A stretch of DNA of 63,760 bases, filler included, from Syncephalis fuscata S228 (lineage: Eukaryota > Fungi > Zoopagomycota): NCBI GenBank assembly GCA_025786725.1. It is 5 parts of 5 records of this genome, joined end to end, with 100 filler letters (N's around TTAATTAATTAA, not from the genome) between each part and the next. Parts side by side here need not be neighbours in the genome. Positions count along the whole stretch, not along the records: positions 1 to 26,601 come from JAHLTZ010000110.1; 4 more parts are not named here. The stretch is one strand, 5' to 3'. The position numbers and the translations under genes were made by a program. Each line of letters opens with the position of its first letter. The stretch's first letter is position 1. The notes under the pieces are model-generated. The model searched no databases and was not told the origin of the DNA. It was given only the letters and a program-made list of their open reading frames with translations. This document shows positions 1-62,814 of the stretch, one piece after another.

Positions 1-1818
1 TAATTAATAAATATTTTTAAATTTTAACCAACAAATAAAATTATACTGATTTATCTAAAGTATTTCAGATATTAAATTTAGCAATTAAACAATTCTGAAT
101 TACATGAAAATACTATTACTGTTTTGATATTCCTGACAGGGTCTTGCAAAAGTGTGACCAAGAGATATACCATGCGATTGTATAGCCAGTTAAAGTCGCA
201 TGTGATTAATCACAAGAATAATATACCTGTCCGATATTAGTACCGATTACTAGTAACAAACGTTTATTACGACAATATGACGAGTAGCTACTTGTTAGTT
301 GCAGGCATGTGAGCAGTTACCTGAACTAATATGCTGCACTAATGATGAAATACTACAAGGCATTCCAGTTCTATTATTAGTTATGTTTACTATATAATGA
401 TAGCTTTATTCAATATCAATAAAGAAATAATCAAGTTTCTAGTCCAATATTATTTCTACTTAGTGTCATACAAGTTATTCAGTTTATTATAGTTAAACTG
501 TGGTAATTAATGACCAATAAGGAATAATTTTATTATAAAAGCAATACAACCAAACAACACACTGTATTCTGAGCGTTAATGTAAGCGTTAATAAGCATCA
601 GAAATTAACGTTACAGAATAGCAACAGGATAAGATGTTGTTTGGTCATCTAAGTTGCGATTTCTAAAACTAGAAGCATAACAGCATTATTACTTTAATCA
701 ACTCAAGTTAACTAGCTGGTGTATCAAGAAAGAGTAAAGATATGCAAAATAAAGCCGCCAACATGGCATTTTCCATTGATAAACTAAAACAATCTACTCG
801 TAATATTCATTTCTAAATTCCACATTAGCCGCGCCAATGTTCTAATTTAAAAAATTTGTGGAACATGGCGAAAGAAGCTTAAAATGGTGTTGTGACAGAT
901 CATTTCATCCACTTGATTTGTACTAAATATTATAATACTTTTATTAGCTAAATAAAAACAACTCTTACACAATATTAAGTACACTATTGGTTATTTAATG
1001 TGATTTGGCAGTTAAATAGCTATAATAGCCATATATTTAAACAAAATATTTGCTTTATTAAAAATGAAGCTGAGTGGTGAGTATTATTGGTTATTAAAAT
1101 ATTTATTTATCATTACTATTGCACTGTACATATTTGCACTGTATACATATACTATGTGTCCGTCTATATCATTAATATTGTATATTGCAAAAACTATATT
1201 AACAAAAACTAAAAGTTTATTGCTAACTGTATTCTTTTAGTAGATTTTAATTCATTTTGTTCATTACTCTTGGTTAATTGCATACAGTATAGTCTCACTA
1301 TCACTATTCACGTATTTGATTTGTTTATTTATTCTATAATATTTTATGCTTTATTGTCATGTTTTATTAAAAAAACGTTTTTATTCTAATTTAGTATAAT
1401 ATTATTTGGCTATATGGTAATAATAGTTTTTTCACTATCTATACCAATCTATGCTTATAGCTAATACGATATAATTGTACATGTCTTTTGTCAATTTAAC
1501 TATTTAATTAATGATTATCGGTTTTTAGATATCAATAAAACATGATTATAAATATAGCTATTTGATTGTATATAGTTAGGATGGAACCATAGGTTTATTA
1601 CAATAAACTTGCACAGTTGAATAGAAACAACTAGATGCAAATATGTTGATAAAATAATGATTCCATTGATTAAAGAATGGATAAACCGGAGCATTGGCCA
1701 AAACTTGATATATAAATAGACTGGACGGCGTAGTTGTCAAATGGTCTTGCTTTTCACTGAGTATATACCTAAAGTGTATTGGAATAGTGGTTTGATTTCA
1801 CCACCAATGCTGATGCTC

Positions 1819-3551
1819 TTATGGTTGTGGGTTATCTGCATTTATAAAGAAAGATATTACATGTCATATAATTAATGTATAATCTATCAATATACAGTAC
1901 TACTTACTGCCTATTATATTAAGTTATTGATACACACAGTATATAGCATTTGGTCAGTACATAGTCAATTAATATACAATGCTACTTACATTCTATTAAT
2001 ATTAAATTGTTGATGAATACAGTAAATAACATTTAGTTAGTGAGTAGCCAGTTAGTATACAATACAACTTACGCTCTATTGATATTAAGTTGTTGATGGA
2101 TACAGTAAATAGCATGTAATTAGTGAGTAGCCAGTTAGTATACAATACAACTTACTATCTATTAGTAGCAAGTTATTGATACACAAAATACACAATATAT
2201 AATTAATAAATAGTCAAGTAATATACAATACTACTTGCCGCCTATTATATTAAGTTGTTGATGCGCACATTATATAGCATGTGGTCAGTACATAGTCAAT
2301 TAATATAAAATTATACTTACAATCTATCAATAATGTTGTTGATTTATAGAGTACATAATATATAATTAGTAAACGGTACATAATATACAATACACTTACA
2401 GGCTATTAATATTAAATAATTAATACAATTAGTAAATAGTATAGTTAATGTATAGTCAGTTGATATACAATATCACTTACTCACTATTAATATTAAATAA
2501 TTAATACAATTAGTAAATAGTATAGTTAATGTATAGTCAATTAATATACAATATCACTTACCGCCTATTAATATTAAATAATTAATACCATTAGTAAACA
2601 AATAGTTAATGTATAATTAGCTAATATACAATATCACTTACATTCTATTAATATTAAATAATTAATACCATTAGTAAATAGCATAGTTAATATATAGTCA
2701 GTTGATATATACTACTACTTACTGCCTATTAATAAGGTTGTTGATGCATACAATACATAACACGTAATTAGTGAATAGTTAGCTAATATACAATAGCACT
2801 TACATCCTATTAATATCAAGTTATTGATACACACAGCATATAGTATATAATTAATCAATGCTCACTTAATATACAATACAACTTACTTTCTATTAGTGCC
2901 AAGTTATTGATACATATAATACACAATATATAATTAGTGCATAGTCAGTTAATATACAATACAACTTACTTTCTATTATAGTAAATTGTAATACACACAA
3001 TACATGGTATACAATTAATTTATAAGTCAGTAACATACAATGCTACTTACTGCCTATTAATATTAAATCATTAATACACACAACACATAATATACAATTA
3101 GCCAATGCTCAATTAATGTACAATATGACTTACAATCTATTATATTAAGTTGTTGATACACACAATGTATCACATAAAATTAGCACATAGTCGGTTAATA
3201 CACAATACATCTTACCATCTATGGTATTAAGTTATGTATACACGTAATACATGTTATTAATTAATTTATAAGCCAGTAATATATAATATCACTTACCGCC
3301 TATTAGCATTAAGTTAATAATACACATAGTATATAACATGCAATTAATGAGTAATTACAGTTAATAAGCAATACAACTTACAATCTAATAGCATCATTAG
3401 TTAGAAATATTATTGGTAAGCAAATGCTATGGCATATTTATTGTTATTGCAACATACCACGACGAACTAAAGCTGGATCAGCATCCACAATGGCTGTAGC
3501 GGCTATCAAAGCCACAAAGATGGTGCAAACGACGGCAATGGAAAGCTTCAT
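1819..3551 (-). CDS. Micro-exon gene 1 (MEG1): secreted 6-Cys prepropeptide, 55 aa, 21 exons
   Basis: Exon 1 (3551-3458, 94 nt) = MKLSIAVVCTIFVALIAATAIVDADPALVRR+G, then GTATGT donor. Nineteen 3-nt exons follow, each between TAG and GTAAG (one GCAAG), lowest coordinates 3382, 3297, 3216, 3134, 3051, 2970, 2887, 2804, 2723, 2642, 2562, 2481, 2400, 2321, 2239, 2156, 2073, 1990, 1908. Introns are 72-82 nt. Last exon 1835-1819 after CAG. Spliced mature part: DCDDCKKRCKCVTYCDKQCNNPQP*. Confidence 0.88.
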
Positions 3552-3687
3552 GGTGATATTGATTTGTTAAGACAAACAAATAAAAGAAATAGTAGAGTGT
3601 GGTTGGTGTAAAGTGGAGAGTAGTGTGTGTTTAGTAAGAAGTAGAGTGGGATGATGATATCGCAGTTATTTGTGTATATTTTGTGGG

Positions 3688-3770
3688 CTATTTAAACTTA
3701 TGATTATGCTGAGTACTAGTATACTGTAGTATACGATATATACCATTGATGTGTGATATGAACCAATAAA
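3688..3770 (-). promoter_or_regulatory. Putative core promoter shared by the micro-exon genes
   Basis: TATA-like TTTAAATAG on the minus strand about 140 nt upstream of the ATG, with plus-strand CCAAT further up. Same block at 17382, 35264 (TATAAATAG) and 40175 (TATAAATAG). Confidence 0.5.
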
Positions 3771-5665
3771 GCAATCCAAACAATGAATTGAGGTGCGCGT
3801 GTACCAATAGACTCATGCCGTAATAGGATGTATCTCAGCCTTGCTTTTAATCTGCTCGGTCTTGATTTTAACCTGCCCGGCCTTTACTTCAATCTGCTAG
3901 TCATTTACACAAATGATGTAAGGGTGTTCGTAATTCAGTACTATGGGATAAAAATTGGCATATTAGCCTGAATTTTTTGTTACACGATTTAACTATTTGG
4001 TAAAAACGATAATGAAGTCTTTGCTGCCATCTCTACTGATTTGATTCTCAATATCTGTTGCATACAGAATAGCACACAACAACACTGATGCAAAAACAAG
4101 TTTGATATGTTAAACTGGTATTTTATACAGGTTTTACTGCCATACATAGGTCAGCTGTAGTTTTAGATTATAAAGTGTGCTGATTGGTACATGAGTGCAT
4201 TTCATTCAACACTATGCCCATTGTTATGGGGCAATCATTGCTTTGAATTCACAAACGCATTACATCCAGGCATATCATGCCACATGTTGTGCAACTACCA
4301 TCATTCAAATGGCGGCTAATCTAAACCACATGAAATTAAATATACAATAAGTATTGTTTGTAGCATAATGCATCACAGCATTTTGAGCAATGGAACATTC
4401 CAACAAGTCATTTTCGTCATCAGTTTTCAGCTGTAAACTAGATTGCATTGGCTAAATTACACGCAATACAATATGCAGACACCAGAATAAACACAATAGA
4501 AAGTTCTGCTCAAATATTACCAATTTCAGTGCATAGTGTCGATGGATTGCATATCGATGAGTAATCATCCAAGGCCTAGGTACTACTTACATTTTCGAAA
4601 CCAATCCTAGCAAGTTAAGCAAGATAGAATATAAACGAACAAGTCAAAGCAGAAACCAATGGAAAAACAATTGGCAGCTCAAAGGATTAATGTTTTGACC
4701 TATAACAAATCATTATAACTATGCTAAACTGGACTGCGTTTATCAAAAGTTGGCTGTTGCTAATGTGACCAAAACAGCAGCAACGTTAAACCGAGATAAT
4801 GCACAAAAAACAAAGAAATGTAAATAAAATTGAATTAACAATTTTAGTAATTAAATCATTTATTATTGTCATTATAATTTATAATTATGGTTGTTTGTGA
4901 GTATAAATATTTACAATCACACTGTAACTTCTTATATACTTACATTTATACGACTACCAACTAAGTCAACTATTATAAGGCTTAGTTTAATTACTTATTA
5001 GAGTAAGCAGTTAATATTATACATTATTGCAATAATAGGAAGACAGATTAATTTTATTATTGATCATTAACGAAAGTTGTATAACTATGTATCAAAATAA
5101 ACATTGAATTAAGCGCGTAGTATTTACATGATCAAGTCATTTTTACTTTAACTCTCACATTTTTATTTACTCATTTCACTCCCTTTTTCTATTGCTATCT
5201 TATTATTCTATTCAGTAATATAGTATACAATAATACCGAATATAACAATATAAATAGCATGTGTATTTGAACATCAATAAAAAACACTATTCAATTCTTA
5301 GTCTTTATTTCCCTTATTTTACATCAACACCTGTTTAAGTAACCTCAACGGTATGCCGTATATTCTGGTTACAACTGTTGCCACAAGATCTTCCTGGTGA
5401 AGACGCTCAACTTATCATTATTGCATATGGTGGAGACCATTTGTTTTATCAATGGTTGGCAAATAATCTGCATTTACCAAGTTGATATCAAGAATGCTCA
5501 AGACAATGGTGAACATTAGGGATGCTAGTCGTCCTACCTTTTTGTCACCATAGACAAATATTTTACATCGCAAATATGCCCAAAATGCAACAGCAGAAGA
5601 TTGGGGAATAGAAGGGACCATTCAGACGCAAGAAACCACACGGTACATAGTAACAACAATAACAA

Positions 5666-5995
5666 CTGCAGAATGGCGTGGAATCGCAATCACATGGCTT
5701 TTATTAATATTTAATCAATTTTTCTACGCATGACCAACAACAATAATGATAGGCCTCGTGAATTTCAAAGTAGTCAAATAGCATGTTACAGTATTTATTT
5801 AAATGTTTAAAATAGAAGTTATTAATATAATGTTCTGTTACATTTAATTTTATTTTATGAAAATAATAATGTTATTATATTAATATTAATATTTATTGTG
5901 AATGATCATTTAAACACAAATTAATCCAATCAATTCGTTAACTATTTAAATCACTACAATTGATTGCGTAAAATGATTTGCTGCTTTAGGGGATT
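5666..5995 (+). repeat. Dispersed non-coding repeat
   Basis: 5666-5800 resembles parts of 30219-30480 and 52993-53245 (GCTTTTATTAATATT...ATCAAT...CCAACAACAA). 5852-5995 resembles 50972-51095 (TTTATTGTGAATGAT..TTTAAACACAAA...GATTGCGTAAAA). Confidence 0.75.
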
Positions 5996-6072: not shown

Positions 6073-7508
6073 TTAAAGATTAGCAGCACCAGAAATAAAG
6101 AACCACTTGTCAACTATGATATTATAATTATAATCATTAATATTTACTAATCTACTCTATCGAGTAGTGCTTACCAGATGAATCAATAGGATGTGGTACC
6201 AAATTCTCGCCCTAATTAATAATAGATTATATTAGACATATTATACTTGATCAATTCATTATAGATCAATACTTGCCTGTGGAATGCTCTTAGCCACTGG
6301 ATCATCGTGTGTAATCTTGGCTGGACTGCCTTCAACCGTAAGATTGGTGCTAAAGTAAAGGATTAGTATAGATTATAATTACTTTAATAACTTACATGTT
6401 CAAATCGTATTTATCAGTCTTGGCCGGTACTTTGCCACCAATCAAACGCTTCCAGGCTTCGTGGGTCTCAGCAACAATTTCTGTGGCATATTTCTATAAT
6501 GATGGCTATGGTTAATTAACGTAGTAGCAACCATTTATAGCAACTTACCTTATTCTTGGCTTCACCACTGAATGCAAATTGATTTTCAGGCTTGCCATCA
6601 GGGATCTTATAAATACGGAACCATTCGTTGGTGGCACGGATAAGACCGGGTAAATGGCGTTCAACATCCTCAATATCTAATAACGTTAATTCATACATAT
6701 TATATAAGACATAAATACACTTTATTTAGTATTACTACTTACCATTAAGCTTGTTGGCCAATGGATCATTGACATCAATAGCCAATAATTTCCAATCAGT
6801 TTCACCTAATGGGTTGGTATACATATTTATTATTATTATTATTATTATATTATATATAAAACTACCTTCATCGAGCAAAGCCATGACACCAAGAATCTTT
6901 ACTTGTTTAACTTGACCGACATAACCGACTTGCTCACCAATTTCACAAACATCAATAGGATCGTTGTCTCCGCGTGCCTTTGTCTCTTCATGTGTATGGG
7001 TTGGATCCTCCCAAGTCTAGTAATATCAATAGAATGGTTATATAACTATTAAATTTATTTATTAATCCATTTATTTACCTGAGGCAATGCGCCATAGTTC
7101 CAAATATAGCCATGGTGTGGGAAGCAGTTGCGCACATAGCGAAGTTTACCCTTTTTAACATCTTGTTTAATAGGTGTTAATGGTTCACCTGTAGCAATCT
7201 AAATATCAACATAATATAATAAAATATTATATAATGTTAATAGTAACATAATAATTAATTACCTCTAATTTGGCATTGGTCCATCGTGGAATTTCAACAA
7301 CCATATTGACAATGGTTTTACGGTCATTGGCGTACAAAGGAATATCATGGAATGGTGATATGACAACACCGTCCTTTTCTATTATATATATAAATATAGA
7401 TATTATTAATATTATTAATATAAAAAATTAACTATTAAACTAACCGAAATAGACGCGGTGGTCTAGAGTGTTGGGAGCACCAACAACACGGGTTTTGTAT
7501 TCAGACAT
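6073..7508 (-). CDS. IPP1: Inorganic pyrophosphatase, family I, multi-exon
   Basis: [83 protein letters not shown], ending [12 protein letters not shown]. Confidence 0.96.
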
Positions 7509-7971
7509 GGCTGTAGTAGTAAGAACGCGACGGTAAATAAGCGAGTAGGTAGTAGATAGAGAGGCAAGTGGTGTGGTTGGAACGAGACAATGACGCGTTC
7601 GAGTGATCAATGGAAAAGAAAGAGAAAGAAGAGGCGGCGTTCTCAGTCTCATGTTTGAAGATAAGCAGCCTCGAAGTGGCAGGTGCGGTATTTTGATAAC
7701 AGTTGCCATTCTCAACTATCTCTGTGTGTGTGTGTATCTCTAAGATGCAGGTAAAAAAATGTACAACCTTTCTTTTACGTTGATTTCGCTAATTGGTTTC
7801 ATAGTCTATCTTGATTGATTCAAGTCTATTTGAAATAAGATTCAGATGGATACGTGTCATATCAATAGAAACACAAGTAGTTTGATATTGAGCAACGACA
7901 CTATTGCTATTGCTACGGTTAGAAGACTATTATTATTACTGCTATTACTGCTATCTCATCAACTGGTCAGC

Positions 7972-10783
7972 ATGTCTCAACATATTAACACGGTTGCTTT
8001 AACCTCGAATGCGACAGCTGAGGTAAAGCTAGATGGTGTACACTGAAAGGACAGTGCTCTAATACTAGTGTATAGGATATTCGACTAGCTAAAGATGTAC
8101 GGAAACATGCAGTTGAAGTAGCCGATGAATTAAAGGGCCTTGAGCTGATTTATGCAGCAAAGTGTAAATATTAACTAACAACTAGTAGAATAGACATGCT
8201 AATTATCACGCTAGATAGCAAACAGATGCCGCGTGCATTAGCAATACAAGAAGAAATTGAGGTAGGCACAAACGAACATTAATCCATTAGAAACCAATAA
8301 TTAATAGTGAAGGATAGCAATGTCAACATCTAGTAGATAGTATGGAAGAGACACTATTGGGATTTCAAACATCGTTGGCTGAAGTAAGTCGCGGTATTAT
8401 GCATATTCAACAAAGTTCTGCCACCATGACACAACATTTACATAATCGCAAAGTAAGTGATCATCAATACACGTAATTATTTGTTGATTTATCATTAGAT
8501 TGGACAACAAGCATTGGATAGAAATTTAACTAAATTAGTGGTGCCGCCCTCATTGATTGTGTAAGTGGATAATGTTAGTATTAGTGTATTTAATAGCTCA
8601 ATATATTTGCTAGAACCATTCTACAACAGCCTATTGATGATCCATATATGGATGCATTAGCGATTCTTCATGCCAAATTACAATATGCACGACGATTAGA
8701 AATGGACAAAACACAGCTCCCGTCCGATTTACGTGATGCACTTGAACGGCTAAGATTAGCGGTAATTACTCGTTATGTATCTGTTCATCAAGTAGTAATT
8801 AATCTTAAATACATATAGGCAACAGCTCGTGTACGAAAGTTTTTATTAGAAAAGGTTGAATCCCTACGAGTACCCAATACTAATGTTCAAATTATTCAAC
8901 AAGCCGTACTATTACGGCATCAACCAGCATTCCGATTCCTTAGAAAATGGCATGTAGAGGCCGCTTCCGAGATACTACAGTCTTATATCAATGCCATGAT
9001 GCTATACTATTTAGATAACTTTGAACAATATAGTCGTGGGCTATGGCGGTTACTTGTATGTAATTCTGGCTTGTATAATAAACAAAGCGGCTATAATAAT
9101 AATAACTGTTCTATTTATTAGGCACCTGTAGTAGAAAAGAACGATTTAACTATCTGGGATGATACAAGTAAATCGTGTAAGTAAATTACGGTATTCAAGT
9201 TATATATTCACTGTATATACATAGTGTTTGCAACTTATAAAGCAGCCGCTTCACCCGAGACGTTTAAAGTCGCAGAACGGATAAAAATACTCGGCTCTAC
9301 CGATGGTGAAGTTATTTTAGCCCATATGGCCGAAGGATCTATGGTAAGTCGTCAGTCTATCGAATATAGATAAGCGACAGGAATGAGGCATTTTACTAAT
9401 AGTTGGATCATGAATAGACATTTCCATTAGAAAAGATTATACGCAGTATTCACGCGGCTCTTCGTGATAATGCCTGTGCAGAGTTTGTATTTATTTTACA
9501 GTTTTTTATTCATCGTTCCGAGTCAGAAGGGGCCGACATATTTACCAAAGTATTTCGGCCTACATTAAATGCACTATTGGTGGGTTATTTAAACAATTGC
9601 CATTATCGACGTATGACTTGTAATACTGATCTATCAATGATTACTAGGCCGATATACGACATGCAGTAGAAAATTCGTTTGATATACTGGGCTTAATTAT
9701 GTCGGTACGTGTACTTGAGCAGATTGGCATTGAAATGGAACGACGCCAAATGTCCATTCTCGACCATTACCTACAAGAGGCCATTATGACTATTTGGCCC
9801 AAGTATCAATTGTTGATTGATCGTATTGTTCGTAATATCCGCGAATTACCAGTTAAAAAACTTACGAATAATATTCAAGTTGGACCACACACGGTAGTAA
9901 TCAATACTATCTGTTATAACCATCTGCTCATCGCTATTTACATATAATTAGACCACAGTAAAATTTGCCGAATTAATTGCCGCCATTCTTGAACTATCTT
10001 TGGGTCCAAATGATGGTGTCGTGCAAAATAGGTGGGCAAATTATTGGTAACATTTATTTATCACTTAATTTTTAACGTATCTATGATCAGTCTTTTGAAA
10101 TTAAGATCTGAATTTAATACGCTATTTGATAAAATGGCCGCTTCATTTCCGGCCATGGTAGATCGACATGCATTTTTTATTAATAACCTTGCCTCCATTC
10201 TTTCCAAATTAGTAGGTATTTATGGGTGGTTATACTATTGAATACACGGCTCTACTTGGTTCGCTTTTTCTTACACTGACATATACTGGACAATTAGTCA
10301 CGATCTAGCGGAGAGGAACCAGTATTATTACATTATCAACAAGCATATGAAACTCATGTAACCGAACTCGTAGAACAGTTGCTCGATCAGCATTTTCCAG
10401 AGCTGGCCCATTTGGCACGAGCAGCAGAAGCCGCTGCACCCACCCTTCCCAATTGCGATCAAGGTAGGCTGATAGACATTATTGCCAGAATAGTTTATAT
10501 GCTGACACGATGCGTGTTTATAGATCAATTGGCGCATATTTCTCAAAATTTCAACGAACGATGGATGAATGAAATCGATGAGCTTAACCATAAGGTTCAA
10601 CAGCGTATCAGCAGTCATCAGGCTCAGGTTGAACTGATGCAGGCCATTCTCTCCCGTCTTATGGCCTACTATACGCATTTCTATCTTTTACTCGAACAAG
10701 TACTTGATGTCCATGCACTCGACTGGACACCGCTAGGTGTGCAGACATTGATGGTAGATATTAAACGATTTGCATTTCAATAG
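7972..10783 (+). CDS. VPS52: GARP complex subunit Vps52/Sac2-like, many exons
   Basis: Exon translations such as LLGFQTSLAEVSRGIMHIQQSSATMTQHLHNRK, LERLRLA/ATARVRKFLLEKVESLRVPNTNVQIIQQAVLL, LRDNACAEFVF and FFINNLASIL resemble Vps52. Start codon is tentative. Confidence 0.8.
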
Positions 10784-14374: not shown

Positions 14375-17248
14375 TTATTCTAATATATAATTAAATACAA
14401 TGTTTTGCACAAAATTAGTGTATAAGCAATTATACATAATGCCACCTACTGCCTATTAGTATCAAGTTGTTTATACGCACAGTACATAGTATATGATTAG
14501 CGTATATTTAGTTGCTACGTTATGCCACTTACAGTCTATTAATATTAGATTGTTAATACGCACAATTCGTAGTATTTGATTAGCGTATATTCAATTAATA
14601 TATAGCATCACTTACTTCCTATTGGTATCAATTTGTTGTTAGATATAATATATAGTATGTATTATTAGTGAGTAATCAACTAATACAAAATAACACTTAC
14701 CGCCTGTTAATATTGAATAGTTAATATAAATGGTACATAAAACACAATTAGTAATTAGTTAATTAATGCAAAATGTAATTTACCGCCTATTAATATGATA
14801 TTGTTGATACGCGTAGCACACGGTGTGTAATTAGTGCATAATCAATTAATATAAACTATTACTTACATTCTATTAGTGTCAGGCCATTGGTATACATATG
14901 GTATATAAAGTGTAATGAGTGCATATCCTACTAGTATACAATGTCACTTACTTCCTATTAATATTAAAATATTAAATATGTATAGCTAATTAATATATGT
15001 TATCACTTACCAACTATTATAGCAAGTTGTTTGTAATATAATACATAGTATATAATTAATGTATAGTTAATTGATATACAATAACACTTACCACCTATTA
15101 CATTAAATTTTCAATACGCATATAATACATTATATAGTTGGTACATAATGAAACAGTATAAAAATCCTTACAAACTATTAATATTGAGTTGTCAGATATG
15201 CGCATTGCATAGCATGCAATTAGTGTATGAACTGTTGATATACAATGGCACTTACTGCCTATTGATATTAAATTATTTATGCCCACAGTATACAATATAC
15301 GATTAGTGCCCACTCAATTTATTTATAATAACACTTACCAACTATTAATATTGAGTTGTCAAATACGCGCATTATATAGCATGCAATTAGTGTATGTTTA
15401 GTTAATATACAGCACTGCTTACAAACTATTAATATTATGTTATTAAAGGCAATTGTATTTGATTAGCGCATAGTTAAAGCGTATAAAATAGCACTCACCG
15501 CCTATAAATATTAAATTTTTGGCAAAAGCATTGTATAAAATTTAATTAGTATAGAACTGATCAATATACAATGGCACCTACAATCTATTATATTAGATTT
15601 TGATACACCCATATAGTATATAATTAGTTTGTGCATAATCAATACATAGTTCCACTTACACCCTATGGATATTGAGTTGTTGGCAAAATTAGTAAACAAA
15701 GTATAGTTAGTACAAAGCTAGCTAGCTTGAAATGTCACTTACAGGCTATTATATTAAATTTAAATAAATAAAATACAGTTAGTACATAGCTAATTAGTAT
15801 GCAGCCTCACTTACGTCCTATTAATATTATTTTGTTGATAGATATAGCAGGCAACATGCAGTTAGTGTTTAGTTGATTATTATGAAATATTACTTACCAA
15901 CTATTAACATTATAATATCGATATTCACAGTACATAGCATTTAATTAGTGCATAGACAATTAGTATACAATTTCACTTACCGGCTATTAGTATCGATTTG
16001 TTGATGCACATAGTACATAGCATGCAATTAGTAATTAGTTAGTTAATATACAATTTCACTTACGGGCTAATAGTATTAAGTTATTGATACAGATGGCACA
16101 TAGTATACATTTAGTATGTAATCAATCAATGCACAATGTCAATTACCTCCTATTAATATTGATTTTTGGTACAAAAAGTACATTGCTTAACTCATGATTA
16201 GGTAGTGTAAAATTCCACTTACTAACTATTAATATTAAGTTATTAATATATAAGATGTGTAAGATTTGGTTAGTTTATAACTAATTGAGCTAAACTATTA
16301 CTCACGAGCTATTAATATTAAGTTAAGTACAGTGAATATATTTTAAGCAATTATAAACAAACTAATATGCAACTTCACTTACGACCTATTATTATTATTA
16401 TGTTTTATATATATATAGTAAACGACATGCAATTAGTGAGCTGTCAGTTAATATAAAATAATACTTACCGGCTATTAGTATTGATTTGTTGATACACATA
16501 GTACATAGCATGCAATTAGCGTATGATCAATTGATACACAATATCACTTACGAGCTATTAATGTTAATTTGCCATATAAAAAATTGTAAATTAAATTGCT
16601 AATTAGCATACAATTCCACTTACTTTCTATCCATGTTAATTTAAGAAATAACATTAATGAGCAACTAGATTGTTAATCAACATACAACACCACTTACTCA
16701 CTATTAATGTTAATTTGACAAATAAGACAATAATCAATTAAAATCTTAATTAACATAAGATATCACTTACACCCTATTTGCATCAATTTAGGAAATAACA
16801 CTAGCGATCAATTAAATTGTTGATCAACATATAATACCACTTACATTCTAGTAAAGTTAATCCAGTGTATTATTATTATAAACATAGTATTTTATCCACT
16901 AGTTTATAGCAAACTTACTTTTGTCCAATGATGTTGCTTGAACTATTTTACATTAACAAATAATACCTAATTAATCTACAAATAGCTATTTATAACCAAA
17001 CCTACCGGCTGTTTACATGTGTTTATCATGTTTATTACGTAGATGGCAGCCTGCTGTAAGTATCAAAATAATGGTTCATGGTAATGGCTTACCCTCTAAT
17101 ACTGCCATTAGCCAAACATAATCCTATTGCATATTTATTGTAATTTTGACATACTACGACGAATTATAGATGGTTTAGCATCCGCTATATTTATATTGGC
17201 TACAAAAGCCACAAAGATAGTAAAGACGACGACAATAAAAAACTTCAT
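14375..17248 (-). CDS. Micro-exon gene 2 (MEG2): secreted Pro/Gly-rich 4-Cys prepropeptide, 73 aa, 36 exons
   Basis: Exon 1 (17248-17155) = MKFFIVVVFTIFVAFVANINIADAKPSIIRR+A. Then 3-nt exons at 17093 and 17006, a 24-nt exon at 16942-16919, 31 more 3-nt exons from 16845 to 14450, and a last exon at 14379-14375. Introns are 56-84 nt, all GT..AG. Spliced: KAVQATSLDKKWLKTPGPLRAPVGPWYCVFGICVGKCGGNCK*. Confidence 0.88.
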
Positions 17249-28880: not shown

Positions 28881-29192
28881 GGTGAAATAAGTGAAGCAGA
28901 ACACTGAATGAGAAAAACAGGGCACGATATTGTTAAGATGACACCATTGACGACGTAGACACTATTTAATGACACAGATGCGTTGCTGAGGTATTACTAA
29001 TCCAAAAACGATCTATCATAACGATTTGAATAGTTGACGAGTTGATTGGATTAATTTGTGTTGAAATGATAATTTACAATAAACATTAGTATAATGTAAC
29101 AACATTATCATTTTCATAAAATATAATCAAATGTAATAGGACATTGTATTAATAATAATTTAAATATTTAAATAAACAATGTAACATACTAT

Positions 29193-30116
29193 TTTAACAA
29201 CATCCAATCTATTGAACATGCTGATGGGTGGTGAGTGACATTAGTCATCAAATACTCATCATTGTAGATTTATTATCTAGCACGCATATAGCATCATAGT
29301 ATGTGTTATTACTATATATGCCCGTCATTTTGCTTGATTAACATTAAAACCATAGCTAATTTCATATTCATATTATTGTTCTATCAATATAACTCAGTAA
29401 ACAAACTAAGTGCAATAAGTCAATTTTTATTAATGAAAAAGCTGGAACCATACCGACAACGGTTATAGACAGCGTATGGCCAATATATAATAAAATAATA
29501 AATATTGTAATGAATATGCAATATTAAACGAGAATAGCAACGTTAAAGTTATTGAACATATATGCATGAGCAGATGACCAACATTAGTCGAACCTTATTA
29601 ATAACAGTGCTATAACAAAAAAAACAAGTGCAATAGATAGTACGTATTTATTATACAATAAAACAATATACAATATAAAAAATACGGTATGAAATGACGA
29701 TTAACTATGTTGAAGTCATTGAGTATATATGCATGCTTAAAGAGTGGAATTAGTCGACATTTGTTGATAATAGTGCTAGAACAAAAATAAAAATAGCTTT
29801 GGATAGAGGAAGGCAAAGTGAGTATAGAATGCTATATAGAATGATAAATATACGGTAAGAAAGTATAAAATGGTGCTAAAGCTATAGCGTATATAACGCA
29901 ATGAGGAGAATGAGTAAAGTATATTGGAGCATATAAACAATAGAACGTGTCTAATATAGCATAGCATGATATATAATAGTATGTGCTAGAATGGGAATGA
30001 TATAGGTGAATATAGAATATATGCATACTGGATAATAAATCTACAATGACCAGTGTTTTGATGACTAATGTCATTCACCACTCATCATCATATTCAATAG
30101 ATTGAATGGTGTTAAA
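29193..30116. mobile_element. Non-autonomous inverted-repeat (MITE/foldback-like) element, copy 1
   Basis: About 100-bp imperfect TIRs: CAATCTATTGAACATGCTGATGGGTGGTGAGTGACATTAGTCATCAAA at the left and TTTGATGACTAATGTCATTCACCACTCATCATCATATTCAATAGATTG at the right. No coding capacity. Related copy at 62815-63760. Confidence 0.8.
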
Positions 30117-32345
30117 TTTAGTCAGTTTAAGCATAAATCATAATAAATGGCTAATAAATTTAAAGTTAAAAATGAAATAGTATATAGTATGTATATATTA
30201 ATGCAACAACAACAACAACTGTGGAACGACGTGAAATCACAATTGTATGGCTTCTATTAATATTCGATCAATCTTTCTATACATGACCAACAGCAACAAT
30301 GATTGGCCTCAAATGTCTCAACAAAATCAATAGTATGTCCCATTATTTGTTTAAATCAATTTATTAACAATATTTCAATAGGAAGTAATATAACTATATT
30401 GCATATGATAACGACATGACTCTGATTGGAGTGAATTTGCTTTGAGGACTCAAAAACTGGGAGTCAGAATGAAATGCGGAATTTTGAAGCATTATTTACC
30501 ATAGTAAATTACGATTTTAAATAAGCATAAATAAAACTATCAAGTCATCAATTCCTTTTATTATAATTAGTACAAAATAAACATATTACAAATGATGTTG
30601 CTACATTCTCAAATGTAAAACAAAAGATGTACAAATAAAATTATTAAGTAGATATTTAATTATTTAACATACACTAACAATTGTAATGGCTTAATAGATG
30701 CTATTATTTTTTATTAAAAGCTTGGTTTGCCTTTAATTTGCTAAAAAACGGCAATGTTACAACAACAGTAATAAAATGATGTAGCATTGACCAAGTAATC
30801 AAAAAAGAAAAATAAATAGTAGTTTAATTAAATATTTTGATATCAATTTAATAATAATACTATTAGTATCAAATGACTTTAACTTATCACAATAACAAGT
30901 TAGCAGATTTATAACAAAAGTTGTAACTGTATAGATTTTATAATAAGCCAAAATAGATTGAATTATAAAAAGGCATTTTATTATTATTTGATTAATAGTA
31001 TTGTGTATTTATAATATTATTGAATAAATACAAACTACTAATGAAGCAACTATCAAAATAAATAAAGTGTAATGCAAACAAAAACTGTTTAATTAATAAA
31101 TATTTTAGATTTAAATCTAACCAACAAATAAGATTAGATTGGTTTAGAGTATTTTGAATATCAGATATAGCAATTAAATAATTCCAAATTACATAAAAGT
31201 ATTATTGCTTTGATCAACTTAAATTAATTAGTTGGTGTATCAAGCAAGAGTGAAGATGTGCAAAATAAAACCGTCAACATGGCATTTGTCATTGATAAAC
31301 TAGAACAATCTACTCGTAACGTTCATTTTAAATGTCGCAGTAGTCGCTCCAATGTTCCAATTTAAAAGAGTTGTGGAACATGGCGAAAGAAGCTTAAGAG
31401 GGTGCTGTGACGGATCATTTAAACCACTTGATTTGTATCAAATCTTGTGATATTTTTATTAAATAAATAAAGATCACTTTTTCCACAATATTGAGCATGC
31501 TATTGGTTGTTTAGTGTGATTTGGCAGTTAAATAGCTATAATAATCACGTATTTAAACTAAATATCCGCTTTATTGAAGATGAAACCGGCTGTTGAGTGT
31601 CATTGGTTATTAAGCTATTTATTTATCATTATTGTTGTACTGTACATATCTGTCTTGTATACACATACTATATGTCTGTCTATATCATTAATATTGTAAA
31701 TTGTAGAAATTATATTAATAGAAGCTAAAAGTTTATTGCTAGCTGTATTCTTTTAGCAAATCTTGATTCATTTCGTTCATTGCTATTGGCTAATTGCATA
31801 CAGTATAGTTTTGTTATTACTATTCACGTATTCGTTTTGTCTATTTATTTTGTTTTATAATATTGTATGCTTTATTGTCGTGTTTTATTAAAAAGCGTAT
31901 TTATTCTAATTTCAGCATAATATTGTTTGGCTATATGATAATGATAGCTTTGCTACTATCCATACCAATCTATGCCTATAGCTTAGGCGATATAATTATA
32001 CACATTTTGTTATTAATTTAACTATTTGATTGATAATTGTCATTATTGAATGCAAATAAAACATGGTTATAGATATAGCAATTTGATTGTATATAGCTAA
32101 GATGAAACCATAGATTTATTACTATAAGCTTGCACAGTTGAATAGGGGCAACTAGATGCAAACATGTTGGTAACATAATGATTCAATTGATTAAAGACTG
32201 GATAAACCGGAGCATTGGCCAAAACTTGATATATAAATAGACTGGGCGGCGTAATTGTCAAATGGTCTTGCTTTTCGCCGAATATATACCTAAATTGTAT
32301 TGGAATAGTGGTTTGATTGCACCACCAATGCTAATGTCCTTATGC

Positions 32346-35128
32346 TTATGGGTTATCTGCATTTATAAATAAAGATATTACATGTTATATAATTAGTGTA
32401 TAAGCCATCAATATAAAATTTTACTTACGGTCTATTGGTATTATGTTATTGATACACATGGTGCATAACATGTAATTAGTGAGTAATTAATCAATATGAA
32501 ATGCTACTTACGGCCTATTAGTATTAAGTTATTGATACCCATAGTGCATAACATGCAATTAGTAAATAAATAAATAATATACAATGCTAATTACATCCTA
32601 TTAATATTGATTTGTTGATAAATACAATACATGGTATATAATTAGTATGTGTTCTATTGGTATGCAATATAACCTACTGGCTATTGATGTTAAGTCATTG
32701 ATAAGCACAATATATGCTATATAATTAGCGAATAGTTAGTTGATATATGATATAACTTACTCCCTATTAATATTAAATTATTGATGAGCACAATACATAA
32801 TATACAGTTAATGTATAGTTAGTTAATATACAATATCACTTACTGCCTATTAATATTAAACAATTGGTACAATCAATAAATAGCATAGTTAATGTATAGT
32901 TAGTTAATATACAATACAACTTACAGACTATCAATATTAAATAATTGGTATTATCAGTAAATAGCATAGTTAATGTATAGTCAGTTAATATACAACATCA
33001 CTTACGGTCTATTAGTATTAAATAATTGGTACAATCAGTAAATAACATAGTTAATGTATAATCAGTTAATATACAATATCACTTACAGTCTATTAATATT
33101 AAATTATTGATGAGCACAATACATGGTATATAATTAATGTATAGTTAGTTAATATACAATATCACGGGGACGTTGCTAGCCCAGTTAGTAAGGCAGCGTC
33201 TCCCGAGCTGAAGGCTCCGGGTTCAAACCTCAGTTTGAATCAATCCTTAAGTGGAAAATCCCCCAGTTTTTTCTAGTTAACAAATTGCAAACCAGAACCC
33301 AATAAGTAAGTCCGAAAACAAGACCTTGGCCAGAATAGCCGAGGAAAACCCAATTGGGACCAACTTCAAGAGAATAGTGCTGTGTAGCACCATTTAAAGG
33401 AAGATGGCCCCTGTGTGAAATCTATATGGGCCAGATTGCGAAACAACATGGCAGTCCACCCGTTAATTTGGGAAAGTCCAAATATAGTGGAAAGCAGCGC
33501 AAATTCTTTAATTATGCGCAGCAGGGGCTCACAAGCTCTTCAAAATAAAATAAAATAATATACAATATCACTTACAGTCTATTAATATTAAATAATTAGT
33601 ATTATCAGTAAATAGCATAGTTAATGTAGTTAGTTAATATACAATATCGCTTACCCACTATTAATATTAAATAATTAATATTATCAGTAAATAGCATGGT
33701 TAATATATAGTCAGTTAATACACAGTATCACTTACTGTCTATTAATATTAAATAATTGGTACAATCAGTAAATAGCAGTTAATATATAGTTAGTTAATAT
33801 ACAATACAACTTACTGTCTATTAATATCAAATAATTGGTATCATCAGTAAATAGCATAGTTAATATATAGTTAGTTAATACACAATATCACTTACTGTCT
33901 ATTAATATTAAATAATTGGTATTATTAGTAAATAGCATAGTTAATGTATAGTCAGCTAATATACAATATCACTTACTGTCTATTAATATCAAATAATTGG
34001 TATCATCAGTAAATAGCATAGTTAATGTATAGTTAGTTAATATACAATACAACTTACAGACTATCAATATTAAATAATTGGCATTATCAGTAAATAGCAT
34101 AGTTAATGTATAGTTAGTTAATATACAATATCACTTACAGTCTATTAATATTAAATAATTGATACAAGCAGTAAATAGCAGTTAATATATAGTTAGTTAA
34201 TATACAATATCACTTACATTCTATTAATATTAAATAATTGATACAATCAGTAAATAGTATAGTTAATGTATAGTTAGTTAATATACGATATCACTTACTG
34301 TCTATTATATCAAGTTGTTGATACGCACAATACATGGTATACAATTAATTTATAAGTCAGCAATATACAATATTACTTACTATCTATTAGTATTAGGTTG
34401 TTGATATATATTATGCATAACACGTGGTTAGTACATAGTCCGCCAATATACAATGCTACTTACAGCCTATTATTGTTAAGTTATTGATACACACAACGCA
34501 TAATATATAATTAGTCAGTGTGCAATCAGTGTACAATATAACTTACATTGGTCTAATATCAAGCCATTGATACATACAACACATAATATATAATTAGTTA
34601 ATACTCAACTAATATACAATACAACTTACCCACTATGCATCAAATTGTTGATGCACATAATACATGATATATGATTAATTTATAAGTTAGCATATACAAT
34701 ATCACTTACAGCCTATTGTTATTAAGTGTTGATACACATTAGTCCATAGCATGCAATTAGTGATAATCAACCAAATATACAATATAACTTACAGCCATCT
34801 AATATTAAGTTGTCAATGGATACAGTACATGACGTATAATTAGTGTATGCTTTATTGGTATATAATAGAACTTACAAACTATTGGTATTAAGTTGTTGAT
34901 GAACACAGCGAATGACATGCAATTATGAGTCATTAGTTAATATACGATACAACTTACTATCTAATAGTATCATTAGTTAGCAATACTATTAATAAGCAGA
35001 TTACTATGGCATATTTATTGTTATTGCAACATACCACGACGAACTAAGGCTGGTTTAGCATCCACGATGGCTGTACTGGCCACAAGAGCCACGACAATGG
35101 TGCAAACGGCGGCAATGGAAAGCTTCAT
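32346..35128 (-). CDS. Micro-exon gene 3 (MEG3): secreted CxxxC-loop-CxxxC prepropeptide, 63 aa, 29 exons
   Basis: Exon 1 (35128-35035) = MKLSIAAVCTIVVALVASTAIVDAKPALVRR+G. Twenty-five 3-nt exons and two 6-nt exons (34793-34798, 34547-34552) lie between 34960 and 32429. Last exon 32356-32346. Spliced: DIYGCLDQCYNKYFYNNNMDYYLCRTRCHHNP*. Confidence 0.87.
33166..33555 (+). mobile_element. tRNA-derived SINE, family A, copy 1, inside an MEG3 intron
   Basis: A box TAGCCCAGTTAG (33177), B box GGTTCAAACC (33220), (AAAAT)n tail, and a perfect 16-bp TSD TAATATACAATATCAC (33150-33165 and 33556-33571). Confidence 0.92.
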
Positions 35129-37431: not shown

Positions 37432-40038
37432 TTATGCTGTATTTACAAATAAAAATATTATGTGTCATATAATTAATATATGAGCCATCAATATATAATG
37501 CTACTTACCGTCTGTTAATATTAAATTGTTGATGCGCACAATACATAGATATAATCAGTGAGTAATTAGTTAATACAGAATATTACTTACTGTCTATTAG
37601 TATTAAGTTGTTGATGAATACAGTGTATAACATATAATTAGTGTATAGTCAGCTAACATATAATACAACTTACTTTCTATTATATTAAGTTTTTGATATA
37701 CACAACACATGGTATATAATTAGTGCATATTCAGTTAATACATAATGTTTCATACCGCCTATTAGTATTAGGTTATTGCCACACATAGTGCACAACATGC
37801 AATTAGTGAGTAATCAGCTAATATATAATACCATTTACAATACTCTAATGTTGATTGTTAATAAATACAGTACATGATATAAAATTAGTATATGCTCTAT
37901 TGATATACACTATTACTTGCTATCTATTAATATTAAACAACTAATACCATCAATAAATAGTATAGTTAATGTATAGTCAGTTAATATGCACTGCCACTTA
38001 CCACCTATTAACATTAAATAATTAATGTCATCAGTAAATAGTATAGTTAATATGCACTACCACTTACCACCTATTAACATTAAATAATTAATGCCATCAG
38101 TAAATAGTATAGTTAATGTATAATTAGCTAATATACACTACCACTTACTATCTATTAATATTAATTTTGATGCATACAATGCATAGCAGATAATTGGTCG
38201 GATAGTCAGCTAATATATAATACAAGGGGGGACGTTGCTAGTCCAGTAGGTAAGGCAGCGTCTCCCAAGCTGAAGGCTTCGGGTTTAAACCTCAGTTTGA
38301 AGCAATCCTTAAGTGGAAAATCCCCCCTCCAGTTTTCTCTAGTTAACAAATTGCAAACCAGAACCCAATAAGTAGGCCCAAAAACAAAACCTTGGCTAGA
38401 GTAGTCGAGGAAAAAAACAATTGGGATCAAATTCAAGGGAATAGTGCTGCGTAGCACCATTTAAAAGAAGATGACCCCGCGTGAAATCTATATGGACCAG
38501 ATTTGCGCAAAAACGTGGCAGTCCACCCGTTAAAAGTTTGGAAAAGCCCAAATATAGTGGGAAGCAGCGCAAATTATTTAATTATGTGCAGCGTGGCTCA
38601 CAAGCTCTTCAAAAATAGAAATAAAAATAATATACAATACAACTTACGTCCTGTATTATTTAGTTATTAATGAACACAATACATATTATATAATTAGTGA
38701 ATAGTCAGTTAATATGCAACACAACTTACTGCCTATTAATAAGGTTGTTGATGCATATAATGCATAACATGTAATTAGTGCTAGTCAGTTAATATATAAT
38801 GCAACCTACACCCTATTAATATTAATTAGTCAATGCATATAATACACAGTATATAATTAGTAAGTAATCAGTTAATATACAATACCACTTACCGCCTATT
38901 AAGATTAAATAATTGATACAATTAGTAAATAGCATATTTAATGTATAGCCAAGTGATATACAATACAACTTACTCACTATTAATATCAAACAATTGGTAC
39001 AACCAGTAAATAGCACAGTTAATGTATAGCCAGTTAATATACAATATTACTTACTGCCTATTAATATTAAGCAATCGGTACAATAATTAATTATTATTAT
39101 TAACGTATAGTCAATTAATATACCATGCTACTTACATTCTATTAATGTTTGTTAATACACACAGTACATGGATATAATTAGAGAGTAATTAATAAATATA
39201 TAGCACAACTTACTAGCTATTAATATTAAATTGTTGATACACGCACAGTACATAATATATAATTAGTGAATAGTCAGTGAATATGCAGTGTTACTTACTA
39301 ACTATTCCAGCAGTTATTGATGCACAATGCATGACACAATTAATTTATAAGCCAGCACATACAATGCTACTTACCGCCTATTAATATCAAGTTATTGATA
39401 CACACAGCACATAATATACAATTAGTCAATACTCAGTCAATATATAATATCACTTACATGCTATTAGTATTGATTTGTTGATATACACGGCGCATGATAT
39501 ATAATTAGCGCATAATTAATTAATACGCAATACACCTTACCCTCTATGGCATTAAGTCGTGATATACACAATACATGGTATATAATTAATTTATAATCAA
39601 CTAATATACAATATCGCTTACCGCCTATTAGTATTGAGTTGTTGATACACATGGTGCATAGCATGTAATTAGTGAGTAACCAATAATATACAATACAACT
39701 TACAGTTGCCTAATATTGATTTGTTGATGGATACAATACATGATACATAATTAGTATATGTTTTATTGGTGTGATATGTAATGCAACCTACCAGCTATTG
39801 ATATTTATTTGTTGATGCACACGTTACATGATATATAATTAGTGGGTAATTAATTAACATACAATAACTTACGATCTATTATAATTATTAATTAAAAATA
39901 TTGTTAATAAACAAATGCTATTATGTTTATTGTTATTGTAACATACCACGACGAACTGACTGGATTAGCATCCACCATGGTTGTAGCGGCTATCAAAGCC
40001 ACAACAATGATGCAAACAACGGCAATGGAAAGTTTCAT
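37432..40038 (-). pseudogene. Micro-exon gene 4 (MEG4), 27 exons, 2-nt deletion in exon 1 (pseudogene or assembly error)
   Basis: Exon 1 (40038-39947) is 92 nt rather than 94, giving TG+A stop at the first junction. Twenty-three 3-nt and two 6-nt exons (39704-39709, 37839-37844) read in the paralogue frame give DPGNCEACVTKCMSGCRHSGDKYCENNA*. Confidence 0.75.
38226..38627 (+). mobile_element. tRNA-derived SINE, family A, copy 2, inside an MEG4 intron
   Basis: Colinear with 33166-33555, with an A-rich tail and a 15-bp TSD TAATATA(T/C)AATACAA (38211-38225 and 38628-38642). Confidence 0.92.
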
Positions 40039-52528: not shown

Positions 52529-53441
52529 GTCTTCGTGAATTAGCGCTGTAATTCTTATTGGAAAGAAACACCGCCACTAAAAAAATAAAAGAAAGGTGCT
52601 GCTGTATTTTGACTTTTACATTTTATTTACTCATTTCACACCTTCACTTTTAAATACAATTAAACATCTATTCATCACTATAACATCTATAATATTACAC
52701 CCAACATTAATTAATTAATGTGTAGTTATTAGTACAAAAATGTAATTAATTAGTTGCCTTTATTATTGCTTTAATATATGTATGCATTTTCATTATGATA
52801 TTAATCGTTCAAAATGTCATTTATTTAGTCAGATTGGCTATAGAAAAAGTGGCTGTTTAATAAACGACATTTACAATAATTATATTAATCTTGTTTTACA
52901 GCACAAATATACTTAAAATACAATAGTAGAATATTAGAAAATAGAAAAGACTATTCAAACGCAATAATCAATATTGTAAATAGATGCAGTAAATGCAGAA
53001 TGACATGGAATTGCAATCATATAGCTTTTATTAATATTCAATCAATCTTTCTACATATAGCCAACAACAACAATAATTGATCTCAAATGTTTCAAAGAAA
53101 TCAAATAGTATGTCACATTCATTATTTAAATCAATTTATTAACAATATTTTAGTAGAAAGTAATATATGTTGTGCATCATAATGACATGACTTTGACTAG
53201 AGCAAATTTGCTTTGGGGACTCAGAAGTGGGAATTAAAGTGAAATCTAGCCATCCTTGATTTAATCAGTTAAATATCTCGGACTTTAATGTTTATTAATG
53301 CTTTTTTTTGCGGACTATACTAAATAAAAGATAACATCTTGTCTCATTCTCACGATATAAAACAATAAAAATGTATTAAATAGATGCTATTGCCACACGA
53401 ATATGATTTACGCACACACATTTCCTATTGAGCTTGTAAAC

Positions 53442-56417: not shown

Positions 56418-56736
56418 AGGGGGTATGCCAAGGCAATTGATTCCGATATATAGTTTGAATAAAATAACGGCACTTGATATTCTGTCGTAGTAGTGGCACA
56501 TACGCCCAACAATGCGGTTTATATAACTGCTTATTAACACACAAATATATTATGCCATTTTTACAAATAAAAGGAGCATGTTAAAAGACCGACTCCCCTG
56601 CGCGTCTCCTGAACATGTCTTAGCTTGAAAGCCATGCACTCCTTTTGCCAATTTATTCTACGTAAAAACATACGTAACATTGCATTTATTATAACAAAAA
56701 TAGCATGTTTGTGCACTAGCTCATTAGGTGAGCTGC

Positions 56737-57756: not shown

Positions 57757-58097
57757 AATCGCTTATACTATTGGTAAAAAGTTGGTTAAAATTAATACAA
57801 ATTATCAATTGAAGTAGTAAAATAAGTGGCAAATAGATGTTATCGCACTGTTTATAAATGTTGTTGTCTAAAAGGAGGCAACATGGTGTATATGAAAGGG
57901 GCTATTACGATTGCAATACATGTTTGCCAATAAAACAGCCACAATTTGGGATGTGTGTTAAAAGTACAATTTAGCCAAAGCAACATTAAGACACATTAGG
58001 CATTACTGAATAACTAGGGCAAGTCACTGATGTCGCCCATCGTCAAATCAAGTGCTATTGTTAGTTTACTTTTCTCCATTGCGTTTATTCAACGACT

Positions 58098-62662: not shown

Positions 62663-62814
62663 ATGATTGGTGCCAATTGACTTGTTTGACAGCACTCGCC
62701 AGTCAAACTAAACGTTTATTTTATTGAATAATCATTTTTATTAAATTATCAAATCATTAGATTATATTATGATTTGGGGTGTCAAATGACTATATTGATA
62801 ACATTCGCGCAATT

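What the first reader, a model, noticed from the sequence alone, without database searches (positions are those of the whole stretch)
1..4850. Micro-exon loci spread as multi-kb duplications whose flanks and signal exon stay alignable while the mature peptides do not
Seen: MEG1, MEG3 and MEG4 share readily alignable flanks and exon 1, yet exon counts are 19, 27 and 25 and the mature peptides are barely alignable. Known: a conserved prepro region with a hypervariable mature region is the conotoxin/AMP pattern of diversifying selection. Four members on three of five short contigs suggests a large family. Divergent haplotypes cannot be fully excluded.
Basis: partly seen in the sequence, partly recalled or inferred. 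Interest (0 to 1): 0.7.

Follow-up and report, generated by a model that had tools for sequence, protein, structure and literature searches.

The report
One-codon-exon peptide family in mycoparasite
A fungus whose closest database relatives parasitise other fungi carries four related genes with similar signal regions and flanks, followed by 19–34 tiny exons, nearly all three bases long, and copying and swapping of these units likely reshuffles small secreted cysteine peptides one amino acid at a time.

Summary
Observation confirmed; interpretation partly supported. Four minus-strand loci in a Syncephalis-like fungus each have a signal+RR exon, an array of ~80-nt spliceosomal introns separated by micro-exons (19, 34, 27, 25; 100 of 105 are 3 nt) and a short last exon. 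Read in phase 1, they give stop-free Cys-spaced peptides (19 Cys pooled; exon-order shuffles mean 7.5, maximum 16). Among MEG1/3/4, flanks, exon 1 and the end introns are 79–91% identical, but internal units are not collinear. In matched unit pairs, exons agree at 8 of 18 bases and introns at 443 of 476. An RNA run shows relatives spliced at the predicted exon-1 donor into Cys-patterned sequence; MEG1's own mRNA was not seen. Thirteen annotated S. fuscata proteins share the prepro region, and one folds as a helical hairpin. The conserved-prepro, variable-mature pattern holds, but the driver is likely unit duplication, loss and exchange filtered for Cys spacing. dN/dS>1 is not shown. MEG4 is frameshifted, and MEG1–MEG3 allelism is not excluded by synteny. 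Codon-sized exons are known (Tuber nank; schistosome MEGs), and the scan noted a similar gene on other DNA (e1-9501575).

The parts
3458..3551 (-). MEG1 exon 1 coding part: 31 codons plus 1 nt; hydrophobic signal-like N-terminus, short pro-segment ending RR; phase-1 donor
   Evidence: two RNA contigs leave the genomic sequence at this donor; signal and Kex2-type cleavage are inferred, no predictor was run
1836..3457 (-). MEG1 array: 20 introns of 72-82 nt and 19 three-base exons (first 3384-3382, last 1910-1908)
   Evidence: spliced reading has 6 Cys spaced x2-x3-x1-x3-x3, P=0.00026 in 100,000 exon-order shuffles
1819..1835 (-). MEG1 last coding exon ending in TAA
1..1818 (.). Downstream flank homologous to MEG3 (676-1835 and 1-120) and to MEG4 (1534-1815)
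3552..4838 (.). Upstream flank homologous to MEG4 (to 4838) and MEG3 (to 4276)
14375..17248 (-). MEG2, older paralogue on the same contig as MEG1: 33 three-base exons and one 24-nt exon; 42-aa cationic mature peptide with 4 Cys (x4-x3-x3)
32346..35128 (-). MEG3: 25 three-base and 2 six-base exons; 32-aa mature peptide with Cys spacing x3-x14-x3
33166..33555 (+). SINE-like insertion with a 16-nt target-site duplication inside a MEG3 intron
   Evidence: no credible Rfam match
37432..40038 (-). MEG4: 23 three-base and 2 six-base exons; exon 1 is 2 nt short (frameshift; pseudogene or assembly error); the array still reads as a 5-Cys pattern in the family frame
38226..38627 (+). Second copy of the SINE-like element inside a MEG4 intron (354 of 388 aligned columns identical to the MEG3 copy)

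Best explanation
These are four copies of one gene type with about one exon per amino acid of the mature region; they likely encode secreted, disulfide-stapled, probably helical-hairpin peptides that likely diversify by duplication, loss and exchange of intron-plus-3-nt units under selection to keep the frame open and the cysteines spaced. Shown: the architecture, the open Cys-rich reading, the non-collinear internal units, the excess exon divergence, and splicing at the exon-1 donor in relatives. Inferred: (1) MEG1-3 are spliced through every micro-exon; (2) the signal peptide is removed and a Kex2-type protease cuts after RR; (3) because all introns are phase 1, each codon is split between two exons, so duplicating one unit adds a residue and creates a new chimeric codon; (4) near-identical introns promote unequal crossing-over or conversion, mostly in the middle of the peptide (the predicted inter-helix loop); (5) the peptides act on the host fungus or competing microbes, most likely as binding inhibitors whose loop sets specificity, as in hairpinin protease inhibitors.
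For: Canonical ends in 109 of 109 introns. Pooled Cys 19 vs shuffle mean 7.54 and maximum 16 in 50,000 shuffles; no stop in all four in 0.018% of shuffles. The other frames have stops in 3 of 4 and 4 of 4 loci. Run X1 behaves as RNA: all 15 listed joints skip GT-AG introns of neighbouring genes. Two X1 contigs match exon 1, leave at the donor (3456/3457) and continue for 240 and 142 letters; by hand their first 30 letters read in frame without a stop, as C-x2-C-x3-C and C-x2-C. End introns and flanks are 79-91% identical, while reciprocal-best internal introns show no order correlation (rho 0.26, 0.07, -0.60). The nearest intron is in the same locus for 11/18, 16/26, 8/24 and 15/33. All 20 introns of the youngest class sit mid-peptide between the Cys groups. 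Exon identity is 8/18 vs intron 443/476, with held-out intron triplets at 79-100%. The first codon base differs in 10 of 11 close intron pairs, as phase-1 duplication predicts. 13 S. fuscata relatives lie on 10 scaffolds, judged by distinct contig lengths. P0132 mature region folds as two helices, pLDDT 89.5.
Against: No RNA contig spelling MEG1-4's own spliced product was seen; 12 of 18 loose-end rows were shown and none lay at the last-exon acceptor. The spliced relatives' gene structure is unknown. Per-locus Cys enrichment is weak for MEG2 (P=0.061) and modest for MEG3 (0.024). The exon-vs-intron test rests on 6 pairs, 5 of them within MEG3, chosen for similar introns. Only 6 of the 13 S. 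fuscata models have 3 or more Cys after the prepro region, and 4 have none; those may be mispredictions (untested). Fold matches are not significant (Foldseek E 5.9 or worse; best Z 5.8). No window peptide was folded. Function is by analogy only.
Confidence: 0.62

Rival explanations
1. Classical conotoxin-like positive selection by point substitution on the micro-exons is the main driver, and unit turnover is secondary.
For: The exon downstream of a matched intron agrees at only 22 of 48 bases when introns are 91% identical. pN is 0.64-0.66 against intron distance 0.07-0.09, and the third codon position changes less often than the first.
Against: Internal units are not collinear. Three of 6 pairs with both flanks matched differ at all three bases while two are identical, which looks more like exchange than gradual substitution (small n). 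Synonymous sites are also elevated (0.36-0.47).
Confidence: 0.2
2. Introns are homogenised by short conversion tracts (concerted evolution) while exons are old and merely constrained, so exon hypervariability is apparent rather than adaptive.
For: The youngest intron class is shared across three loci at 80-97% identity; synonymous divergence in exons also exceeds intron divergence.
Against: It does not by itself explain changes in exon number and Cys spacing, and it still needs selection to spare the exons.
Confidence: 0.1
3. The arrays are not spliced as 3-nt exons (a minisatellite inside one long intron), or the copies are haplotypes or mis-assemblies.
For: MEG1's own spliced form was not seen. 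MEG4 is frameshifted. MEG1-MEG3 homology runs to the contig ends.
Against: Cys enrichment and open frames. MEG1 and MEG2 share a contig. MEG4 homology stops mid-contig, with different neighbours (Gti1/Pac2 vs pyrophosphatase and Vps52). Copies differ by 9-21% in flanks. There are 13 relatives in S. fuscata.
Confidence: 0.08

Closest known systems
[quoted passage not shown] 2012; seen only as cited in passages of PMC4986451)
   Same: Expanded fungal gene family with multiple codon-sized exons proposed as a diversification device.
   Different: Those are large NLR-like proteins diversified by alternative splicing. Here the product is a 24-42 aa secreted Cys peptide made almost wholly of such exons, diversity is visible at the DNA level, and alternative splicing is untested.
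Schistosome micro-exon genes (MEGs) (passages of PMC4350168)
   Same: Signal peptide, most of the coding region in very small symmetrical exons, recent expansion, mature region faster than signal region, parasite context.
   Different: Described as restricted to platyhelminths, with diversity by exon skipping. No homology was tested or is expected. Here exons are 3 nt, introns are near-identical tandem units, and a Cys framework constrains skipping.
Plant alpha-hairpinins, including six-Cys Nigellin-1.1 and vicilin-buried peptides (passages of PMC7191063 and PMC11591084)
   Same: MEG3 and P0132 fit the CX3CX4-20CX3C motif. The P0132 model is helix-loop-helix, and hairpinin-type peptides head the weak fold lists. 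In hairpinin trypsin inhibitors the loop is the reactive site.
   Different: Plant family with modular or vicilin precursors. MEG1, MEG2 and MEG4 do not fit the motif. The resemblance is probably convergent.
Conotoxin and antimicrobial-peptide superfamilies (recalled, not looked up)
   Same: Conserved signal and pro region, dibasic cleavage site, hypervariable mature region with kept cysteines.
   Different: There the mature region is typically a single exon changing by point substitution; here it is split residue by residue and remodelled by unit turnover.
Unnamed Syncephalis fuscata hypothetical proteins (for example KAI9591999.1 and KAI9593080.1)
   Same: Same prepro region (68-87% identity over 31 aa), diverse and often Cys-rich mature regions.
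   Different: Unannotated, no significant Pfam match for the 6 scanned; their exon structure could not be retrieved.

Membership tests
Schistosome-type MEG | Most of the coding region in very small symmetrical exons | tested here: met
   105 of 105 internal exons are multiples of 3 nt and encode nearly all of the mature region
Schistosome-type MEG | N-terminal signal peptide | tested here: inconclusive
   Hydrophobic N-terminus, helical in the P0121 model; no signal predictor available
Schistosome-type MEG | Isoform pool by alternative splicing | not testable with these tools
   Only contigs were available. In silico, single skips keep frame and Cys count in 8/19, 20/27, 15/25 and 26/34 cases
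Schistosome-type MEG | Platyhelminth origin | tested here: not met
   Neighbouring genes are fungal: best hits Syncephalis and Thamnocephalis, Gti1/Pac2
Tuber nank codon-sized microexon genes | Multiple codon-sized exons | tested here: met
   100 three-base exons
Tuber nank codon-sized microexon genes | NACHT and ankyrin domains | tested here: not met
   Products are 55-73 aa and end at a stop just after the array
alpha-hairpinin | CX3CX4-20CX3C core motif | tested here: inconclusive
   Met by MEG3 and P0132; not met by MEG1, MEG2 or MEG4 (motif from PMC11591084)
alpha-hairpinin | Helix-loop-helix fold | tested here: inconclusive
   Predicted for relative P0132 only; fold matches not significant
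alpha-hairpinin | C1-C4 and C2-C3 disulfides; antimicrobial or inhibitor activity | not testable with these tools
   Needs chemistry and assays
Conotoxin-like diversifying selection | Conserved prepro region with hypervariable mature region | tested here: met
Conotoxin-like diversifying selection | dN/dS above 1 in the mature region | tested here: inconclusive
   pN 0.64-0.66 vs pS 0.36-0.47 on 6-8 synonymous sites; the first codon base is not homologous after unit duplication

The most novel reading that the evidence does not exclude
The loci are a germ-line codon-cassette shuffling system. Homogenised ~80-nt introns act as recombination arms that move, add and swap single-codon exons within and between many paralogues, so a mycoparasite evolves a combinatorial library of disulfide-hairpin effector peptides one residue at a time, possibly multiplied further by exon skipping.
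Probability: 0.3. Interest if true: 0.87.

Novelty: new variant of a known kind. Interest (0 to 1): 0.7.

Why it matters
A gene with one intron per residue is an extreme test of how the spliceosome handles runs of 19-34 consecutive exons of almost all three bases. It gives a concrete mutational route (unit duplication and exchange) to the conserved-signal, variable-mature pattern that is usually attributed to point substitution. It points to a candidate effector family in haustorial mycoparasites that gene callers would largely miss or mispredict (inferred from several Cys-free S. fuscata models). The family offers many natural replicates for separating recombination from selection.

Tried and rejected
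No whole genome is held, so a genome-wide exon-1 count was impossible; S. fuscata proteins served as a proxy. The run search listed no holder on record as RNA; X1 was judged RNA from its spliced joints. Contig depth was far higher over exon 1 and the 3' end than over the array, but the tool rules out depth as a measure of expression or copy number, so it is not used. Metagenome scans with an intron-unit motif and with the family alignment (364 pattern matches, 0 confirmed) found nothing. Pfam gave no significant match for 6 of the 13 relatives scanned. The Atlas search with P0124 gave only scores of 0.76, below the lead threshold. Rfam and ARAGORN did not identify the SINE head. Fold searches gave no significant match. 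Literature searches for Syncephalis+microexon, for micro-exon/3-nt exon/secreted/cysteine-rich/fungal and for Syncephalis+small secreted+mycoparasite returned 0 papers. None of the 20 listed of 155 papers mentions Zoopagales, and the 4 listings for S. fuscata are on other topics. Supplements and subscription papers, including Iotti 2012, were not seen. A codon-level pN/pS was computed but rejected as proof of positive selection. Positional orthology of internal units was rejected.
Full report
Setting. The window is five contigs joined by N-linkers; no whole genome is held. A glutathione reductase fragment has its best hits in Syncephalis pseudoplumigaleata, Thamnocephalis and S. plumigaleata (59-66% identity), and a Gti1/Pac2 gene is present. 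The organism is therefore a Syncephalis-like zoopagalean fungus. That these are haustorial parasites of other fungi is recalled, not from a call.

Anatomy. Four minus-strand loci share one plan: exon 1 (94 coding nt; 92 in MEG4) encoding a signal-like segment and a pro-segment ending RR, a phase-1 donor, a tandem array, and a short last exon with TAA. Each array unit is an intron of 56-84 nt followed by a micro-exon; two introns are 486 and 496 nt because of a SINE-like insert. Counts are 19 (MEG1), 34 (MEG2), 27 (MEG3) and 25 (MEG4). Of 105 micro-exons, 100 are 3 nt, four are 6 nt and one is 24 nt. I curated exons by hand from regex candidates (24, 33, 28 and 27) using the repeat register. 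All 109 introns end canonically (107 GT-AG, 2 GC-AG), and 87 of 109 have a CTRAY motif. The unit motif occurs 70 times on the minus strand, none outside the four loci, and never on the plus strand.

Is the reading real? Spliced in phase 1, the mature regions are 24, 42, 32 and 28 aa with Cys spacings x2-x3-x1-x3-x3, x4-x3-x3, x3-x14-x3 and x2-x3-x3-x7. Shuffling exon order 100,000 times gives P(Cys at least observed) of 0.00026, 0.061, 0.024 and 0.0021. Pooled, 19 Cys compare with a mean of 7.54 and a maximum of 16 in 50,000 shuffles, and all four stay open in 0.018%. Run X1 behaves as RNA: its 15 listed joints skip GT-AG introns in the neighbouring genes, and the three DNA runs show none of them. 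On 1745-3512, two X1 contigs follow exon 1 to 3456/3457 and then continue for 240 and 142 letters unlike the intron. By hand, their first 30 letters read in frame as stop-free C-x2-C-x3-C and C-x2-C patterns. They match none of MEG1-4, so they are further family members. MEG1's own spliced product was not seen; 12 of 18 loose-end rows were displayed.

Divergence. For MEG1-MEG3, exon 1 is 80/94 identical, upstream 180/199, downstream 228/250, first intron 66/73 and last intron 63/72. MEG1-MEG4 and MEG3-MEG4 are 79-90%. MEG2 is older, at 65-74% in exon 1 and flanks. Internal introns do not line up: reciprocal-best pairs give rho 0.26, 0.07 and -0.60 (6, 8 and 8 pairs), and nearest neighbours are often in the same locus (11/18, 16/26, 8/24, 15/33). 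A young class of 20 introns (4 in MEG1, 12 in MEG3, 4 in MEG4) maps entirely to the middle of the peptides, between the N- and C-terminal Cys groups. Among the 4,950 pairs of 3-nt exons, 6 non-overlapping pairs had both flanks at least 85% alike; their introns match at 443/476 and exons at 8/18 (Fisher p 2e-7, inflated by selection on introns). Held-out intron triplets match at 79-100% against 42-50% for exons. For 16 intron pairs at 91% identity, the downstream exon matches 22/48 and the upstream exon 16/48, against a baseline of 29%. Exon 1 has pN below or about equal to pS in all three comparisons. In the array, pN is 0.64-0.66 and pS 0.36-0.47, on 6-8 synonymous sites, and the first codon base differs in 10 of 11 close pairs. 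The latter is what duplication of an intron with its downstream exon yields in phase 1 without any substitution, so this is not a proof of dN/dS above 1.

Paralogues or alleles. MEG1 and MEG2 are 13 kb apart on one contig. MEG4's homology to MEG1 and MEG3 stops while the contigs continue, and its upstream neighbour differs. MEG1-MEG3 homology reaches both contig ends, so only their 9-15% divergence in near flanks argues against allelism. A profile search found 13 relatives among 279 candidates of 17-135 aa, all named S. fuscata hypothetical proteins, on 10 scaffolds judged by distinct contig lengths. Six have 3 or more Cys after the prepro region and four have none. P0132 has spacing x2-x3-x13-x3-x3, which is MEG1's framework with a longer loop.

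Product. A single-sequence model of the P0132 mature region is a two-helix hairpin (residues 4-18 and 24-38, pLDDT 89.5). Foldseek ranks Nigellin-1.1, VBP-8 and a Jug r 2 peptide first but at E 5.9-7.6, and the wide search's best Z is 5.8 among generic hairpins; these are leads only. MEG3 fits the published alpha-hairpinin 4C motif; MEG1, MEG2 and MEG4 do not (PMC11591084, passages). In hairpinin trypsin inhibitors the inter-helix loop is the reactive site (PMC7191063, passages), which is where these arrays expand.

Mechanism. Most likely, near-identical introns promote unequal crossing-over and conversion; each event adds, removes or swaps a residue without shifting frame and makes chimeric codons; selection keeps open frames and Cys spacing and probably favours new loops. 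The architecture and splicing I put at about 0.9, unit turnover at about 0.8, and a role against host or competing microbes at about 0.6. The function is inferred from analogy and lifestyle only.

Relation to known systems. Codon-sized microexons are reported for Tuber nank genes (passages of PMC4986451 citing Iotti 2012, which I did not see). Schistosome MEGs pair small symmetrical exons with signal peptides and fast mature-region evolution (passages of PMC4350168). In Coprinopsis, 3-nt exons are rare and scattered: 27 exons in 26 genes (passages of PMC12230235). PMC4974935 on intron gain by tandem duplication was seen as a search listing only. My searches found no description of this family. 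The scan's notes hold a similar single gene in another mycoparasite genome (e1-9501575, unchecked). Verdict: a real feature, a new variant of a known kind; interest 0.7.

Noticed in passing
window 33166-33555 and 38226-38627: The same SINE-like element sits in an intron of MEG3 and of MEG4, each with 9 micro-exons downstream, which suggests one ancestral insertion. But both target-site copies differ between the loci at the same two positions, which suggests independent insertion at one register of the unit, or later conversion. Unresolved.
   Followed up: partly
window 39947-40038: MEG4 exon 1 lacks 2 nt just before the RR codons, giving an early stop, while its array retains a Cys pattern: recent pseudogene or assembly error.
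   Followed up: partly
window about 5300-5990, 29020-30480, 50975-51095, 52890-53245, 62800-63760: Dispersed repeats with 70-87% identity between contigs; the 5.3-5.9 kb copy attracts many variant contigs in all four runs. Probably mobile-element fragments.
   Followed up: no
protein P0132 (S. fuscata): The dibasic RR of the pro-segment is replaced by CC, so processing may differ.
   Followed up: no
window 6735-10783: Pyrophosphatase (minus strand) and a Vps52-like gene (plus strand) are bridged by one RNA contig of run X1 with all listed introns removed; this served as the control that X1 is RNA.
   Followed up: partly
window 55438-57762: Two adjacent minus-strand genes with similar 2-oxoglutarate dioxygenase-like (prolyl 4-hydroxylase-like, label recalled) ORFs, possibly a tandem pair.
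   Followed up: no
window 16919-16942: MEG2 has one 24-nt exon near its start; 6-nt exons occur twice each in MEG3 and MEG4, possibly from acceptor shifts.
   Followed up: no
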